A stretch of DNA of 64,000 bases. Source: Escherichia coli O157:H7. Its GTDB lineage: Bacteria > Pseudomonadota > Gammaproteobacteria > Enterobacterales > Enterobacteriaceae. Made by a program: the position numbers. Shown here piece by piece: positions 1 through 21,000 of the stretch. Every line of letters starts with the position of its first letter. The stretch's first letter is position 1. The stretch is from assembly GCF_013167455.1 (NCBI RefSeq), contig NZ_CP038328.1; one strand, given 5' to 3'.

Positions 1-3000
1 CACGCCCATACCTGGACCTGGGTTAGCTTCAATCAGGAAGAAGATTGATTTACCCAGTTCATGGGACTGCTGAATACCCAGCGGCGAGAAGATACCGTGG
101 TTAATGGCGTTGTTGAGGAACAGGATTTTCGCCGGTTCAACAAAGATAGACGCCAGCGGCAGCATGTCATGGACAACCATGAAGTTAACGCCCGCAGCCA
201 GCATTTTGGACAGGGTTTCAACAATCGGGCCAATGCCGAGGAATGCCAGAATAGCGAGGATCATCCCGATGATGCCTGCGGAGAAGTTATTCACCAGCAT
301 CTCAAAACCGGATTTGATCTTACCGTCTACCCAGCGGTCGAAGTGCTTAATGCACCAGCCGCCCAGCGGACCTGCAATCATAGAACCGAGGAACATCGGC
401 ATGTCTGCGCCGACGATAACGCCCATGGTGGTGATGGCACCGACTACGCCGCCACGTTCGCCGCCTACCAGCTTACCACCGGTATAACCGATCAGCAGCG
501 GCAGGAGATAAGTGATCATCGGCCCGACCAGCTTCGCCAGCGTCTCGTTCGGTAACCACCCTGTTGGAATAAATAACGCGGTGATGATACCCCACGCGAT
601 AAACGCGCCGATATTTGGCATCACCATGTTGCTGAGGAAACGACCAAAGCTTTGCACTTTGATCTTAATATCGGATGACATAAAAACACCCCTTCTTATG
701 TTTGCTGTCGCGCAGGCTGGAAGCCCGAGGTTTTTTGTTAATGTGGCGGCAGAGGTAGCCGGACCTTGTAGATACTGCGAAATCTGGCACTGAATCGGTT
801 AACTGTCCAGTCGACGGCCTTTTGTGTGATATCAATCACATAAATATAGGGGGTAGAGAGGTAATTGACGTGACGTTCATCACAAAACGCTTGTGTAAAA
901 AAGCAACAAGGCGGCGATTTTCGCTAAAAATGGCATTTAAATGTGAGTAGTGTCACATTTTTGTTTTGATGGTTTGTTGAATCTTTGTGATCTGAATCAC
1001 AAGATATTTTCTTACGGCGTTCACCTGATGTGATCTACAGCATGTTATGCCTTCGTCATACAATCGTTATGTAACTAAGCAACTCATCACCTCTAAAAAT
1101 TATTCTTTGGTGTTATGGCGAGAATCGCGAACCCGGATTATTGTCAAAATATCAGCCTGACTCCCTTCTGGCTGCCAGCCCAAAAACAACACTGATAAAC
1201 GTGAATCCGAGGCAGATATGTTTCTAAACTATTTCGCGTTGGGAGTGCTGATCTTCGTCTTTCTGGTGATTTTTTATGGAATCATCGCGATACATGACAT
1301 CCCTTATCTGATTGCCAAAAAGCGCAATCACCCCCATGCCGACGCTATTCATACGGCGGGCTGGGTGAGCCTGTTTACTCTGCATGTTATCTGGCCGTTT
1401 CTGTGGATCTGGGCGACGCTCTATCAACCGGAGCGTGGCTGGGGTATGCAGTCACATGTTGCGTCGCAGGAGAAAGCGACTGACCCGGAAATCGCCTCAC
1501 TTTCTGACCGAATTTCCCGGCTGGAGCATCAACTCGCCGCCGAGAAAAAGACTGACTATTCCACGTTCCCGGAGATCTAATTATGGATCTATTGATTGTT
1601 TTAACTTACGTGGCGCTGGCGTGGGCGGTCTTTAAAATCTTCCGCATTCCGGTAAATCAGTGGACGCTGGCGACGGCGGCGCTGGGAGGCGTGTTTCTGG
1701 TGAGTGGTTTGATTTTATTGATGAACTACAACCACCCTTACACTTTTACCGCGCAAAAGGCAGTGATAGCGATCCCTATCACGCCACAGGTGACGGGAAT
1801 TGTTACTGAAGTCACTGACAAGAATAATCAGCTTATTCAAAAGGGCGAGGTGCTTTTTAAGCTCGACCCGGTTCGTTACCAGGCGCGAGTTGACAGACTT
1901 CAGGCTGACCTGATGACGGCGACGCATAATATAAAGACGCTGCGTGCGCAGCTCACTGAAGCGCAGGCCAACACCACCCAGGTTTCAGCGGAGCGCGACC
2001 GTCTGTTTAAAAATTATCAACGTTACTTGAAAGGCAGCCAGGCGGCGGTGAATCCGTTCTCGGAACGTGACATCGACGATGCGCGGCAAAATTTCCTCGC
2101 GCAGGATGCGCTGGTGAAAGGCTCGGTGGCGGAGCAGGCGCAGATCCAGAGCCAGCTCGACAGTATGGTTAACGGCGAGCAATCGCAGATTGTGAGCTTA
2201 AGAGCGCAACTTACTGAAGCAAAATATAACCTTGAGCAGACTGTCATTCGCGCGCCGAGCAATGGCTACGTTACTCAGGTACTGATCCGCCCAGGTACAT
2301 ACGCAGCTGCCTTGCCGCTGCGTCCGGTGATGGTCTTCATCCCCGAGCAAAAACGGCAAATTGTCGCCCAATTTCGGCAAAACTCGCTGTTACGTCTGAA
2401 ACCCGGCGATGATGCGGAAGTGGTGTTTAACGCGCTACCTGGGCAGGTGTTTCACGGCAAACTGACTAGTATTTTACCTGTCGTGCCAGGCGGTTCTTAT
2501 CAGGCGCAGGGGGTATTGCAATCATTAACGGTCGTGCCCGGCACGGACGGTGTGCTGGGAACCATTGAACTGGACCCTAACGATGATATCGATGCCTTAC
2601 CCGACGGCATCTACGCCCAGGTGGCGGTTTACTCCGACCATTTCAGCCATGTTTCGGTGATGCGGAAAGTGCTGCTAAGAATGACCAGCTGGATGCATTA
2701 TCTTTATTTGGATCATTGAGGGGGAGGGGGGAGATTATGGAACTTTGCTCCTTGTAAGGACTAATTATTTTTGCATATTACTTCATTAGCTGCGATGATT
2801 TTTCTTTAATATTCATTATGTTAATAAGTTCTGGATGAGTGTGCTCTCATTGGATTTTTTATCCGTCTTGTTCTGCCGCAGGATGAGACTATACATCGTC
2901 GAGATCGCAATGATGATATGAGTTGTTCCTCCTGCGACGGCTCTAATCAAAAAAGAGCAGGAGTGCTTTTCCATCTATTGCGATGATGGCTTTATTATCT

Positions 3001-18000: not shown

Positions 18001-21000
18001 AAGCCTCGACCTGTTAAAAAGCCACGCAGCACACTTCAGAAAGTATATAAAAAACAATATGTCGTTATATAAATAAGGAAATTGCATTGCATCATGGCAT
18101 TTCATAATATGCGTTAATTGTTCTTTTTTATATTCTCTGAGGGAAATATGTTCCTGGACTATTTTGCACTGGGAGTGCTTATTTTTGTATTTCTGGTGAT
18201 ATTCTATGGGATTATTATTTTACATGATATTCCCTACCTGATTGCTAAAAAACGTAATCATCCTCATGCCGACGCCATTCATGTTGCTGGTTGGGTGAGT
18301 CTTTTTACGCTGCATGTTATCTGGCCATTTTTGTGGATTTGGGCCACGCTTTACCGCCCGGAGCGGGGATGGGGAATGCAAAGCCATGATTCATCCGTTA
18401 TGCAACTGCAACAGCGCATTGCCGGGCTGGAGAAACAGCTCGCCGACATCAAATCCTCTTCTGCCGAGTAATACTTATGGATTTACTGATTATTTTGACC
18501 TATGTGGCTTTTGCATGGGCAATGTTTAAGATCTTCAAAATTCCCGTAAATAAATGGACCATTCCCACAGCGGCCCTGGGTGGAATATTTATTGTCAGCG
18601 GTCTAATTCTGTTAATGAACTATAACCATCCGTATACCTTTAAAGCGCAAAAAGCGGTTATTTCTATTCCTGTTGTCCCACAGGTGACAGGCGTGGTGAT
18701 AGAAGTGACGGATAAGAAAAATACGCTGATTAAAAAAGGTGAGGTGCTATTTCGACTGGACCCGACGCGTTATCAGGCGCGGGTGGATCGGCTGATGGCG
18801 GATATCGTTACCGCAGAACATAAACAGCGGGCGTTGGGCGCAGAGTTAGATGAGATGGCGGCGAATACTCAGAAGGCAAAGGCCACGCGGGATAAATTCG
18901 CTAAGGAGTACCAGCGTTACGCACGCGGCAGCCAGGCGAAAGTAAACCCGTTTTCAGAACGCGATATTGATGTGGCACGGCAAAATTATCTGGCGCAGGA
19001 AGCCTCCGTAAAGTCATCGGCGGCGGAACAAAAACAGATCCAGAGCCAGCTGGATAGCCTGGTGTTGGGTGAACATTCTCAAATCGCCAGCCTGAAAGCG
19101 CAGCTCGCGGAAGCAAAATATAACCTTGAGCAGACGATAGTGCGTGCGCCGAGCGATGGTTATGTGACCCAAGTGCTGATTCGTCCGGGTACCTATGCCG
19201 CGTCGCTGCCGCTACGTCCGGTGATGGTGTTTATACCCGATCAGAAACGACAAATCGTGGCGCAGTTCCGTCAGAACTCCTTGCTGCGCCTGGCTCCCGG
19301 CGATGATGCGGAAGTGGTATTTAACGCTCTGCCAGGCAAAGTGTTCAGCGGTAAGCTGGCAGCCATTAGTCCAGCTGTTCCCGGCGGAGCTTATCAGTCG
19401 ACCGGCACCTTACAGACGTTAAACACAGCGCCGGGTTCAGATGGCGTTATCGCGACCATTGAACTGAATGAGCACACTGATTTGAGCGCTTTACCAGACG
19501 GTATTTACGCTCAGGTGGCGGTCTACTCTGATCATTTCAGCCATGTCTCGGTGATGCGCAAAGTGTTATTACGCATGACCAGCTGGGTGCATTACCTTTA
19601 TCTCGATCATTAATCTTCGCTTTCCGCCGCTTGTTCAGGCCGCAGTTGCTGCGACTGAGCAAGCTGGTGGCGAATTTCACGCAGCATTTCATCCAGCACA
19701 TACTGGACCCGCCAGGGCTGGTATTCCCGTTTACGGAAGATAGCCACCAGATCCAGCCACCATTCATACGGGTGCTGAAAGCAGGGCACCAGCGTGCCGT
19801 CTTGCAGATCGCTCTGCACACTTTTGTCTGGCGCAAACACAATCCCCAGGTGATTTCGTGCCAGCTCCAGCGCCGATTGCGTGTTATCGCAAACGTAATT
19901 TCCCTTCACGCGATAATCCCGCACCTCTTTACTCCCGGCGACGTTGAAGCGCCAGATATTCGCGTCGTCGATCATCATCGAGTCGATCAAAATACAGGAG
20001 TGATGTTCGAGTTCGTCAGGACGGCTAATAGGATGTTTCTCAAGATAGCGCTGGCTGGCATAAGCGGTTACGGCATATTGGGTAATAAAACTGGCAACCA
20101 GCGATTCATCTTTTGGTGGGGCATAGCTGATTAAAACATCACAATCATCAGGAAATTCGACGCCTTCATAAAAGGCATTACGCTCAAGATTGCAGGTTTT
20201 TAGCGATAAGGTGATATCACCGATATCTTTAATTTTATCGATTACATGTTTGGATAAATAGGTAATTATGCCGGTTGGGGCGTAGATGGTGACCCGACCA
20301 CGTTTCTCATGCTTATAATCTGCAATAAAATTATTAAGCTGCTCGTTTCTGTCCAGCATGTCGTTGATGTACGGTAATAGCGCGGTGCCAAAAAGTGTGA
20401 GCATCAGTTGTCGGGTGGTTCGGTCAAAGACTTTTAAACCCACTTTTGATTCAAAATCAGCAAGATATTTGCTGACGTTGGCCTGTGCGATGCCAAGTAC
20501 AGTCGCGGCATGGCTGATATTTTCACTGGCAGCGATTACCGAGATAATTTTTAACTCCCGGTACTTAAGTTGTAATTTTGTCATCGCAACAGCCCAATTA
20601 TATATAATTTTATATATTACTATATAAATATGAATCTTGCACCGGAGAAATTGTAAGCATTACTATGCCGACTCTTTTTTATCTTATTTTAAAATGGAAT
20701 ACCGGACATGTTAATTAACCGCAATATTGTGGCGTTATTTGCGTTGCCTTTTATGGCAAGCGCAACTGCTTCTGAATTATCCATTGGTGCTGGTGCGGCT
20801 TATAATGAATCGCCTTATCGCGGTTATAATGAAAATACAAAGGCAATTCCGCTGATTAGTTATGAAGGTGATTCTTTTTATGTTCGTCAGACCACGTTAG
20901 GTTTTATTCTGTCGCAAAGTGAAAAAAATGAACTTAGCCTGACCGCATCCTGGATGCCGCTGGAATTTGACCCTGCCGATAATGACGATTATGCCATGCA

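What the first reader, a model, noticed from the sequence alone, without database searches (positions are those of the whole stretch)
1218..19613. Paralogous two-gene modules (DUF3302 protein plus HlyD-family adaptor) about 16 kb apart
yibI-yibH (1218..2719) and yiaW-yiaV (18148..19613) have the same architecture, tight spacing (3-6 nt) and about 75-80 percent identity at protein and DNA level, with the yibIH copy noticeably richer in G/C at third codon positions. Neither pair is next to a transporter or outer-membrane channel gene that a membrane-fusion protein would normally partner with. They bracket the rhsA-selAB-aldB block; this could be an old segmental duplication, and the functional partner is unknown.
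Basis: seen in the sequence. Interest (0 to 1): 0.35.

Follow-up and report, generated by a model that had tools for sequence, protein, structure and literature searches.

The report
Paralogous DUF3302–adaptor operons in E. coli
Two anciently diverged copies of a two-gene membrane operon (a tiny DUF3302 protein plus an EmrA-like periplasmic adaptor) lie about 16 kb apart in E. coli O157:H7; both are long-annotated genes of unknown function, and the second copy is an accessory, lineage-restricted one rather than a recent local duplication.

Summary
The window is E. coli O157:H7, and yibI-yibH (1218-2719) and yiaW-yiaV (18148-19613) are annotated paralogous operons with identical architecture. 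Protein identity is 77% for the adaptors and 79% for DUF3302 (94% in its 78-residue core). DNA identity is only 69-71%, synonymous sites are saturated, and homology stops at the cassette edges.

- **yibIH** sits between mtlA and yibF-selAB in nearly all Enterobacteriaceae sampled and occurs in 5406 of 5426 E. coli genomes.
- **yiaWV** occurs only in Escherichia/Shigella, Citrobacter and Pseudocitrobacter. It is missing, together with yiaU-yiaT, from about 30% of E. coli.
- **Age of the split.** YiaV branches outside all YibH-type sequences of Enterobacterales and shows no rate acceleration. The split is therefore at least as old as the order, not a recent segmental duplication.
- **No linked transporter.** In 21 independent genomic contexts (Gamma- and Alphaproteobacteria, plasmids, metagenomes), DUF3302 is followed directly by the adaptor gene and never by a conserved transporter or outer-membrane factor.
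- **Fold.** The adaptor is EmrA-like but fails every named equivalog. Its membrane segments are its most conserved parts.

My best reading is a stand-alone DUF3302-adaptor membrane complex, possibly docking TolC. Its function has not been tested. The genes are already known, so interest is modest.

The parts
682..1217 (+). mtlA-yibI intergenic region (about 40% GC); presumed yibIH promoter region
   Evidence: The annotation places the mtlA 5' end at window position ~681 and the yibI start at 1218. GC is 0.40 in 801-1200. No strong sigma-70 consensus match was found here.
1218..1580 (+). yibI: DUF3302 inner-membrane protein, 120 aa; two predicted TM helices (2-26, 41-68), a short loop helix, and a variable coiled-coil tail (90-113)
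   Evidence: ORF and annotation. PF11742 at 140 bits. AF2 secondary structure. Family alignment A3.
1583..2719 (+). yibH: EmrA-like membrane-fusion/periplasmic adaptor protein, 378 aa; two N-terminal hydrophobic helices, lipoyl domain, ~56-residue alpha-hairpin arms, beta-barrel, C-terminal amphipathic helix
   Evidence: NCBIfam best hits are EmrA/EmrK and MdtN, both far below cut-off. AF2 model. Foldseek best match is EmrA in EmrAB-TolC, 8zal/8zar, E 2e-19.
17604..18147 (+). aldB-yiaW intergenic region (41% GC) with REP-like palindromes just after the aldB stop; left edge of the variable yiaWVUT block and presumed yiaWV promoter region
18148..18471 (+). yiaW: DUF3302 paralog, 107 aa (annotated ATG; the TTG at 18118 listed by the ORF tool is only the mechanical upstream start)
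   Evidence: PF11742 at 146.7 bits. The core is 94% identical to YibI.
18477..19613 (+). yiaV: EmrA-like adaptor paralog, 378 aa, 77% identical to YibH; its stop codon overlaps the yiaU stop by 4 nt (convergent)
19610..21448 (.). yiaU (LysR, minus strand) and yiaT (MipA/OmpV outer-membrane protein, plus strand): context, not part of the module, but they are gained or lost together with yiaWV among E. coli genomes
   Evidence: YiaU regulates yiaT (PMC9068703).

Best explanation
Both loci encode the same self-contained two-protein envelope module.

**Components**
- A DUF3302 protein with two transmembrane helices and a variable coiled-coil tail.
- An EmrA-type periplasmic adaptor that is probably translationally coupled to it. 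The adaptor has two N-terminal membrane helices, a lipoyl domain, a long alpha-hairpin, a beta-barrel domain, and a membrane-proximal C-terminal amphipathic helix.

**Proposed mechanism**
- I propose that DUF3302 is the adaptor's dedicated inner-membrane partner. It would occupy the place that an MFS, FUSC, ABC or RND pump holds in characterised tripartite systems.
- The conserved membrane complex (DUF3302 helices, adaptor helices, C-terminal helix) would be the functional core.
- By analogy with the EmrA hexamer, the periplasmic part would form a tube. In E. coli this tube is long enough to reach TolC.

**Evolution**
- yibIH is the ancestral, nearly universal Enterobacteriaceae copy.
- yiaWV is an anciently diverged second copy. 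The split is at least as old as the YibH-type radiation in Enterobacterales.
- yiaWV is kept or was acquired only in the Escherichia-Citrobacter-Pseudocitrobacter group and is dispensable in about 30% of E. coli.

**Status of each step**
- Shown: paralogy, age, distribution, fold class, strict gene pairing, absence of a linked transporter, and the conservation pattern.
- Inferred: physical DUF3302-adaptor complex, oligomeric tube, TolC docking, and export as the activity. The substrate is unknown.
For: **Pairing**
- In 21 independent contexts DUF3302 is immediately followed, on the same strand with a 0-10 nt gap or an overlap, by the adaptor gene.
- These contexts are: Enterobacteriaceae yibIH and yiaWV, Buttiauxella, Serratia, two Yersinia species, Edaphovirga, two Pantoea plasmids, a third K. 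aerogenes copy, an E. kobei IncF plasmid, Aeromonas, Pseudoalteromonas, two Vibrio species, Photobacterium, Colwelliaceae, Rhizobium, and three metagenome contigs.
- The neighbours differ every time, and no transporter or outer-membrane-factor gene is conserved.

**Fold**
- AF2 mean pLDDT is 79, with the periplasmic domains above 90.
- The best PDB matches are EmrA chains of EmrAB-TolC (E 2e-19, TM-score on target 0.62-0.66, up to 361 aligned columns).
- phmmer aligns YibH 54-285 to EmrA 52-279, so the hairpin length is nearly the same.

**Conservation**
- Across 13 sequences less than 80% identical to one another, the adaptor is most conserved in TM1 (0.70), the cytoplasmic loop (0.70), TM2 (0.71) and the C-terminal helix (0.75).
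- It is least conserved in the hairpin (0.42-0.44; tip 0.30).
- The DUF3302 core is 94% identical between the paralogs and stays highly similar out to Rhizobium.

**Evolution**.

**Not a named pump adaptor**: 113 bits against cut-offs of 376-391 for EmrA/EmrK and MdtN.
Against: - No experiment or coordinate-level model shows that DUF3302 contacts the adaptor. The AF2 fusion returned no coordinates, and pLDDT of YibI alone (85.5) was higher than in the fusion, so that comparison says nothing.
- Hairpin length varies within the family: 33 residues shorter in Aeromonas and the E. kobei plasmid copy, and about 60 shorter in a metagenome member. The tip is poorly conserved family-wide. Both facts argue against obligatory TolC docking.
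- The strict R-x3-L-x6-S/T hairpin-tip motif is absent.
- Four small helices per protomer pair have no precedent as a transporter.
- Reported phenotypes are weak or absent. yibH is used as a neutral integration site. A yiaW insertion did not change the phagosome-maturation (LAMP1) assay, the only one run on it.
- The NJ topology has 81% support, not 100%, and the outgroups are distant (~45% identity).
Confidence: 0.55

Rival explanations
1. Recent local (segmental or tandem-like) duplication of yibIH in the ancestor of Escherichia and Citrobacter, followed by fast divergence of the new copy, yiaWV.
For: - The two cassettes lie on the same strand and very close together: 7.8 kb apart in E. whittamii and 15.4 kb here. 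That is improbable for a random insertion.
- Their lengths are identical (378 aa, no indels).
- yiaWV is restricted to one clade.
Against: - There is no flank homology and synonymous sites are saturated.
- YiaV is outside all YibH-type sequences in 244 of 300 bootstraps. The nested topology appeared in 0 of 300.
- Yersinia, Serratia, Pantoea and Buttiauxella share 40-46 states with YibH against 14-18 with YiaV.
- With distant outgroups the unique changes are balanced (17:20, 15:18, 9:21, 18:15, 16:15, 13:12), so YiaV is not accelerated.
- Third-position identity is uniformly low along the gene (0.30-0.53), so there are no recent gene-conversion tracts.
Confidence: 0.12
2. YibH and YiaV are ordinary adaptors for a pump encoded elsewhere. 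Candidates include an orphan 14-TMS MFS exporter or an orphan FUSC/ArAE-family protein; I recall such E. coli orphans from memory and did not test them here. DUF3302 would be only a small accessory subunit, as AaeX is in aaeXAB.
For: - The nearest sequence families are adaptors of MFS and FUSC pumps: EmrA/EmrK, MdtN and AaeA.
- The structure matches EmrA.
- Small membrane proteins do accompany this adaptor class. The aaeX-aaeA-aaeB example is my own knowledge.
Against: - Adaptor genes of this class are normally adjacent to their pump gene. Here none of 21 contexts across two proteobacterial classes has one.
- The module also travels alone on plasmids.
- The adaptor's membrane helices and DUF3302 are the most conserved parts. 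That is unexpected if the anchor were a passive tether.
- DUF3302 shows no Pfam similarity to DUF1656/AaeX, even at E<=10.
Confidence: 0.25
3. The module is not an exporter. It would be an envelope-spanning structural or stress-related assembly, or an ion-driven stator-like unit that energises something in the periplasm.
For: - Deleting yiaW raises Ca2+-mediated transformation efficiency, suggesting an envelope-permeability effect (cited in PMC12844161).
- Deleting yibH in Klebsiella lowered plaque formation by evolved phages (PMC11796411).
- The architecture (a small 2-TM protein with a coiled coil, plus a periplasm-spanning partner) echoes GldL/PorL-type systems, which are the top but non-significant Foldseek hits for YibI (E about 3).
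- Hairpin length is variable.
Against: - The Foldseek hits are not significant.
- No conserved acidic residue lies in the DUF3302 transmembrane helices.
- The periplasmic part is a canonical adaptor fold whose known role is channel formation.
- The cited phenotypes are indirect and come from single studies.
Confidence: 0.08

Closest known systems
EmrA of the EmrAB-TolC MFS-type tripartite pump (PDB 8zal/8zar; PMC13139468)
   Same: - Same domain order: N-terminal membrane helix, lipoyl, alpha-hairpin, beta-barrel, no membrane-proximal domain, and a C-terminal helix.
- It is the best sequence hit (E 1.7e-11) and the best structural hit (E 2e-19).
- The hairpin length is nearly equal.
   Different: - Only ~20% identical, and 113 bits against a 391-bit family cut-off.
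- Two predicted N-terminal helices instead of one.
- The C-terminal helix follows the barrel after only 4 residues. It cannot fold back onto the hairpin as the EmrA helix does through its long coil (one search compared).
- No emrB-like gene is adjacent, and it is always paired with DUF3302.
MdtN (MdtNOP) and AaeA (AaeXAB), adaptors of FUSC/ArAE-type pumps
   Same: - MdtN is the next-best NCBIfam match (111-113 bits) and AaeA follows (63-75 bits).
- aaeXAB also starts with a small membrane-protein gene directly upstream of the adaptor gene (my own knowledge, not tested here).
   Different: - Scores are far below the equivalog cut-offs of 376 and 400 bits.
- No FUSC gene follows the adaptor gene.
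- DUF3302 has no detectable similarity to the AaeX family, even at E<=10.
Orphan or paralogous periplasmic adaptors listed in TCDB as 8.A.1 (yiaV = 8.A.1.1.4, 'uncharacterized')
   Same: This is the existing database classification of YiaV (table in PMC10971958).
   Different: The classification says nothing about the DUF3302 partner, the membrane-centred conservation, or the history of the two copies.

Membership tests
Membrane-fusion / periplasmic adaptor protein superfamily (HlyD family) | Lipoyl (barrel-sandwich) domain, alpha-helical hairpin and beta-barrel domain in the canonical interleaved order | tested here: met
   Pfam CusB_dom_1, HlyD_D23 and HlyD_3 above cut-off for both proteins. 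AF2 secondary structure. 69 PDB matches at E<=0.001; all 50 listed are adaptor proteins.
EmrA/EmrK subfamily (TIGR00998) and MdtN equivalog (NF007785) | Whole-protein score at or above the curated cut-off (390.8 and 376 bits) | tested here: not met
   YibH scores 113.5 and 110.9 bits. YiaV scores 112.0 and 113.1 bits.
Efflux RND-type adaptor subfamily (TIGR01730) | Score at or above 94.9 bits | tested here: inconclusive
   YibH scores 99.9 bits (passes). YiaV scores 88.1 bits (fails).
EmrAB-TolC-type tripartite pump | Adaptor gene adjacent to its inner-membrane transporter gene (14-TMS MFS) | tested here: not met
   None in 21 contexts. The one MFS+adaptor pair seen nearby (Y. vastinensis) is a separate convergent operon with its own adaptor, and it is absent in Y. 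rohdei and Serratia.
EmrAB-TolC-type tripartite pump | Single N-terminal TM helix, and a C-terminal helix that packs on the lower hairpin via a long coil (PMC13139468) | tested here: not met
   AF2 predicts two N-terminal helices (YibH 1-19 and 26-50). It predicts a C-terminal helix (355-374) only 4 residues after the last barrel strand (EmrA description). This rests on a prediction, not a structure.
TolC-dependent adaptors | Hairpin tip that docks tip-to-tip on TolC (R-x3-L-x6-S/T motif in AcrA, MacA and HlyD; my own knowledge) | tested here: inconclusive
   The strict motif is absent from YibH and YiaV, but E. coli EmrA, which does dock TolC, also appears to lack the strict form, judging from the aligned tip segment. 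The tip is 88% identical between the paralogs but only 0.30 conserved family-wide. Actual docking cannot be tested with these tools.
DUF3302 (PF11742) | Score at or above 32 bits over the 77-position model | tested here: met
   140 and 146.7 bits, covering positions 1-76 of 77. The family has 816 clusters (50% identity) at E<=1e-3.
AaeX / DUF1656 small subunit of FUSC pumps | Detectable sequence similarity to the family profile | tested here: not met
   No hit even at E<=10. Profile-profile comparison was not done.
Known anti-phage defence systems (PADLOC) | Match to a defence-system protein model | tested here: not met
   Only coiled-coil noise at E about 0.005 for YibH, and nothing for the other three proteins.
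Recent segmental duplication | Homology extending into the flanks, unsaturated dS, and copies nested within the host clade | tested here: not met
   Homology is limited to 1206-2717 vs 18136-19611, and pS is 0.75-0.78. YiaV lies outside the YibH-type clade.

The most novel reading that the evidence does not exclude
DUF3302 plus the adaptor's own membrane helices form a new, minimal kind of inner-membrane component for a tripartite envelope machine. Four helices per protomer pair, presumably in a ring, would make a pump-less or ion-coupled conduit that needs no MFS, ABC, RND or FUSC transporter. This would explain why the membrane segments are the most conserved part, and why the two genes always travel alone, including on plasmids.
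Probability: 0.15. Interest if true: 0.7.

Novelty: already known. Interest (0 to 1): 0.27.

Why it matters
**What is already on record.** These are four long-annotated 'y-genes' of E. coli. Their paralogy, families and TCDB class are all known, so the finding itself is ordinary.

**What is worth keeping for efflux and y-ome researchers**
1. The pair is a conserved stand-alone module across Gamma- and Alphaproteobacteria, with no linked pump. DUF3302, not an unknown distant transporter, is therefore the first partner to test.
2. The most conserved parts are in the membrane. That points mutagenesis at R36, H38, H56 and W59-P60 of DUF3302 and at the adaptor's N-terminal helices and C-terminal helix.
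3. E. coli carries two copies that may be redundant. Single knock-outs, and the use of yibH as a 'neutral' integration site, may therefore hide phenotypes.
4. About 30% of natural E. coli already lack yiaWV. These strains are ready-made backgrounds for deleting yibIH.

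Tried and rejected
- **AF2 fusion, YibI-(GGGGS)6-YibH, with a partly paired alignment.** It gave a good fold. The tool returns no coordinates or PAE, so contacts could not be read.
- **AF2 of YibI alone as a control.** pLDDT was higher alone (85.5), so the comparison says nothing about an interface.
- **Foldseek of YibI against the PDB.** Nothing was significant. The GldL/PorL hits (E about 3) are not evidence.
- **A conserved histidine-cluster or metal site in DUF3302.** The close relatives suggested it (HDIP...NHPHxDAIH). 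The family alignment weakened it: only H38 and H56 are at least 90% conserved, while H26, H40, H45 and D42 vary.
- **Positive-inside analysis of DUF3302 topology.** Ambiguous. The loop and the post-TM2 segment both carry about 2.5 K+R, and the N-terminus carries none.
- **RLS hairpin-tip motif as a TolC test.** Absent, but not decisive.
- **Relation of DUF3302 to AaeX/DUF1656.** None detected.
- **PADLOC defence models.** None.
- **Literature searches.** No functional paper exists. The first search was polluted by 'Yibin'.
- **Fixed-difference polarity count (10 vs 7).** Too noisy with outgroups at 45% identity to stand alone, so I replaced it with Tajima tests.
- **Looking for E. coli genomes with a direct aldB-yiaU junction.** None exist. 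Genomes without yiaWV lack yiaU-yiaT as well.
- **E. coli E69 locus L004.** It has an unrelated arrangement after aldB. I did not pursue it.
- **Several look-ups of distant DUF3302 representatives.** They landed on contigs too short to show context.

Full report
**1. Identity of the window and check of the observation**

The region 1000-3000 is 100% identical to E. coli O157:H7 chromosomes. RefSeq annotates the four ORFs as follows:

| Gene | Coordinates | Product |
|---|---|---|
| yibI | 1218-1580 | DUF3302 protein |
| yibH | 1583-2719 | HlyD-family protein |
| yiaW | 18148-18471 | DUF3302 protein |
| yiaV | 18477-19613 | HlyD-family protein |

- All four are on the + strand.
- Pfam confirms DUF3302 at 140 and 147 bits against a cut-off of 32, and finds CusB_dom_1, HlyD_D23 and HlyD_3 in the adaptors.
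- YibH and YiaV are both 378 aa and 77% identical with no gap.
- YibI and YiaW are 75-79% identical overall. Their 78-residue core differs at only 5 positions, and the rest of the divergence lies in the C-terminal tail.
- The spacers are 2 and 5 nt.
- GC3 is 0.62 and 0.61 in yibIH against 0.48 and 0.55 in yiaWV.

One claim was too high. DNA identity is 69-71%, with third positions only 43-45% identical.

**2. Age and mode of the duplication**

- Nei-Gojobori pS is 0.75 and 0.78, which is saturated.
- dN is 0.18 in both genes, so both copies have long been under purifying selection.
- Third-position identity is uniformly low along the gene, so there has been no recent gene conversion.
- blastn homology is confined to 1206-2717 vs 18136-19611, from the ribosome-binding site to the stop codon. 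The flanks are unrelated.

**3. Distribution**

A scan of one genome per species returned 80 loci with a YibH relative at 81-99% identity. I mapped E. coli neighbour proteins onto them.

- **yibIH** lies between mtlA and yibF-selAB in these genera: Escherichia, Citrobacter, Enterobacter, Klebsiella, Raoultella, Leclercia, Lelliottia, Trabulsiella, Yokenella and Pseudocitrobacter. Kluyvera has the same arrangement without the mtl genes.
- **yiaWV** was found between aldB and yiaU only in Escherichia, Citrobacter and Pseudocitrobacter.
- In Enterobacter, Leclercia, Lelliottia, Silvania and Huaxiibacter, aldB is directly followed by convergent yiaU and then yiaT. In E. soli the stop codons are almost adjacent.

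A protein search with YiaV found only about 16 clusters at 83% identity or more. The named members are Escherichia/Shigella, Citrobacter and Pseudocitrobacter. One Salmonella label sits on a sequence also deposited as C. freundii. Below 83% the hits jump to YibH-type proteins of Trabulsiella, Scandinavium, Buttiauxella and Yersinia at 75-79%.

Within E. coli the two modules differ sharply:

| Module | Complete genomes carrying it |
|---|---|
| yibIH | 5406 of 5426 |
| yiaWV | 3804 of 5426 |

- No genome has a direct aldB-yiaU junction.
- Genomes lacking yiaWV lack the whole yiaW-yiaV-yiaU-yiaT block. In strain GPEC172, for example, aldB is followed by the GH127 gene.
- That block also has lower GC3 (0.48-0.55) than aldB, selAB and yibIH (0.58-0.62).

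**4. Phylogeny**

The NJ tree used Kimura distances on 378 columns and 100 sequences. Outgroups came from Vibrio, Pseudoalteromonas, Aeromonas, Rhizobium, a third K. aerogenes copy and an E. kobei plasmid. The tree places the YiaV clade as sister to all YibH-type sequences of Enterobacterales, including Yersinia, Serratia, Pantoea and Buttiauxella.

Bootstrap support from 300 replicates on a reduced set:

| Grouping | Replicates |
|---|---|
| YiaV clade | 300 |
| YiaV + YibH against the outgroups | 300 |
| YibH-type excluding YiaV | 244 |
| YiaV + Enterobacteriaceae YibH (the recent-duplication topology) | 0 |

Tajima relative-rate counts argue against long-branch artefact.

- With six distant outgroups, YiaV-unique against YibH-unique changes are 17:20, 15:18, 9:21, 18:15, 16:15 and 13:12. 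YiaV has therefore not evolved faster since the split.
- Yersinia, Serratia, Pantoea and Buttiauxella share 40-46 states with YibH against 14-18 with YiaV.

The split is thus at least as old as the YibH-type radiation in the order.

One thing remains unexplained. Such an old paralog sits only 7.8-15.4 kb from its relative (note 3). Two options are open:
- A very old local duplication followed by many losses.
- Horizontal replacement through the conserved flanks.

The limits of this analysis are the distance method, the 81% support, and outgroups at about 45% identity.

**5. What the module is**

*The adaptors*
- The best NCBIfam hits are EmrA/EmrK and MdtN, at 111-113 bits against cut-offs of 376-391. 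AaeA and EmrA proper score lower. The adaptors therefore form a separate subfamily within the branch that serves MFS and FUSC pumps.
- The closest solved structure by sequence is E. coli EmrA (E 1.7e-11), with YibH 54-285 aligned to EmrA 52-279.

*The AF2 model.* I modelled YibI-linker-YibH (mean pLDDT 79, periplasmic domains above 90). In YibH numbering it shows:

| Element | Residues |
|---|---|
| Helix 1 | 1-19 |
| Helix 2 | 26-50 |
| Lipoyl strands | after helix 2 |
| Hairpin helices | 97-152, 161-196, 202-218 |
| Beta-barrel | up to 350 |
| C-terminal helix | 355-374 |

- Foldseek's top hits are the EmrA chains of EmrAB-TolC (8zal/8zar, E 2e-19, TM-score on target 0.62-0.66), followed by MacA, AcrA and MexA.
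- The published EmrA has one TM helix. Its C-terminal helix reaches back to the hairpin through a long coil (PMC13139468). YibH differs on both counts.

*DUF3302*
- It is predicted as two TM helices (2-26 and 41-68), a short loop helix, and a separate tail helix (90-113).
- The family has 816 clusters (50% identity) at E<=1e-3 among 1.84 billion representatives.
- Invariant positions: P29, A33, P39, A43, S51, L52, W59, P60, W65.
- Positions at least 90% conserved include R36, H38 and H56.
- The tail is variable but always helical.

**6. Context**

I examined 21 independent contexts. In every one, DUF3302 is immediately followed by the adaptor gene. The neighbours are unrelated from case to case:

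| Organism or locus | Neighbouring genes |
|---|---|
| Pseudoalteromonas | dnaJ/dnaK |
| Aeromonas | a mechanosensitive channel and a DEAD helicase |
| Rhizobium | SulP-ppk2 |
| V. parahaemolyticus | an ECF transporter, 340 bp away |
| Photobacterium | ferritin |
| Colwelliaceae | an EAL protein |
| Serratia | ShlB |
| Y. vastinensis | a GGDEF protein and a convergent emrAB-like operon |
| Y. rohdei | a PLP enzyme |
| Edaphovirga | transketolase |
| Pantoea plasmids | pqiB or yahO |
| E. kobei IncF plasmid | toxin-antitoxin and adhesin genes |

Sources. The only exception to the pairing is a Microvirga DUF3302 gene cut by IS5. No transporter or outer-membrane factor is conserved next to the pair.

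**7. Conservation pattern**

Across 13 adaptors less than 80% identical to one another, I measured the fraction identical to YibH:

| Region | Fraction identical |
|---|---|
| TM1 | 0.70 |
| Cytoplasmic loop | 0.70 |
| TM2 | 0.71 |
| C-terminal helix | 0.75 |
| Lipoyl domain | 0.55-0.63 |
| Beta-barrel | 0.49 |
| Hairpin helices | 0.42-0.44 |
| Hairpin tip | 0.30 |

- Of the 65 invariant residues, 22 lie in the first 52 positions and 9 in the last 23.
- Hairpin length varies. It is 33 residues shorter in Aeromonas and the E. kobei plasmid copy, and about 60 shorter in a metagenome member.
- Between the two E. coli paralogs, however, the tip is 88% identical and hairpin helix 1 only 55%.

The constant part of the system is therefore in the membrane. 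In well-studied adaptors the anchor is a weakly conserved tether (my own knowledge).

**8. Explanation**

I conclude that the two loci are copies of a stand-alone DUF3302-adaptor module. DUF3302 is the adaptor's dedicated membrane partner.

- In E. coli the hairpin matches EmrA in length. An EmrA-like hexameric tube reaching TolC is therefore plausible but untested.
- Family-wide variation in hairpin length means TolC docking cannot be a universal requirement.
- The rival reading, an adaptor serving a pump encoded elsewhere, remains possible (0.25). A recent local duplication is disfavoured (0.12).

**9. Literature**

No functional study exists in the searchable library.

- yibH is used as a neutral integration site (PMC5852967).
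- A yiaW IS1 insertion in a macrophage-evolved clone had no effect of its own (PMC5495878).
- Deleting yiaW was reported to raise transformation efficiency (cited in PMC12844161).
- yiaV is listed as TCDB 8.A.1.1.4, 'uncharacterized' (PMC10971958).
- yiaV turned up in a V. vulnificus GWAS (PMC10485832).
- Deleting yibH in Klebsiella reduced plaque formation by evolved phages (PMC11796411).
- YiaU regulates yiaT and the waa operon. yiaWV is not mentioned as a target (PMC9068703).

**10. Verdict**

The genes and their paralogy are already known and the function is still open, so interest is modest.

Noticed in passing
window ~17604-21448: yiaW-yiaV-yiaU-yiaT behaves as one presence/absence block in E. 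coli. yiaWV is present in 3804 of 5426 complete genomes, against 5406 of 5426 for yibIH. In strain GPEC172, aldB is followed directly by the GH127 gene. The block has lower GC3 (0.48-0.55) than its neighbours.
   Followed up: partly
window 14662-15957: A Fic-family gene lies between yiaY and aldB. At the same place in E. whittamii and another Escherichia species the two genes are adjacent, so this looks like a strain-variable insertion. It is also present in GPEC172.
   Followed up: no
window 19610-19613: yiaV and yiaU are convergent and their stop codons overlap by 4 nt. The pair is listed among RNA-seq-supported excludons in PMC12288877.
   Followed up: partly
window ~17630-17700: REP-like palindromic repeats lie immediately after the aldB stop codon. 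Similar copies (~94% over 34 nt) occur near mtlA in other Escherichia loci.
   Followed up: no
window 2800-9025: An Rhs element: a GC-rich core gene (4796-9025, GC 0.59) followed by a low-GC (0.31-0.40) tail. The tail holds yibG, an orphan Rhs C-terminal fragment and a frameshifted Imm57 immunity gene. This element accounts for much of the distance between the two modules.
   Followed up: no
L088 6001-7478; L089 6001-7391: Further, much more divergent DUF3302+adaptor copies exist in Enterobacteriaceae. One is a third copy in K. aerogenes (adaptor 43% identical). Another sits on a conjugative IncFIB/FII plasmid of E. kobei (39% identical, short hairpin) among toxin-antitoxin and adhesin genes. 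The module is therefore mobile.
   Followed up: partly
protein P0173 (alignment A3): This DUF3302 protein has a tail ending in the adaptor's C-terminal motif (LLRMRSWQNYVF). It is probably an internal deletion that fuses the two genes.
   Followed up: no
L004 14750-17693 (E. coli E69): In this genome aldB is followed by a carbohydrate-porin / rhaM-like segment instead of yiaWVUT. This arrangement is not seen in the other Escherichia loci.
   Followed up: partly
L087 5995-7171 (Microvirga ossetica plasmid): A short DUF3302 gene is followed by an IS5 transposase instead of an adaptor gene. It is the only unpaired DUF3302 I saw and is probably a disrupted module.
   Followed up: no
window 13201-13600: A sharp GC dip (0.33) occurs in the selB-yiaY intergenic region.
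   Followed up: no
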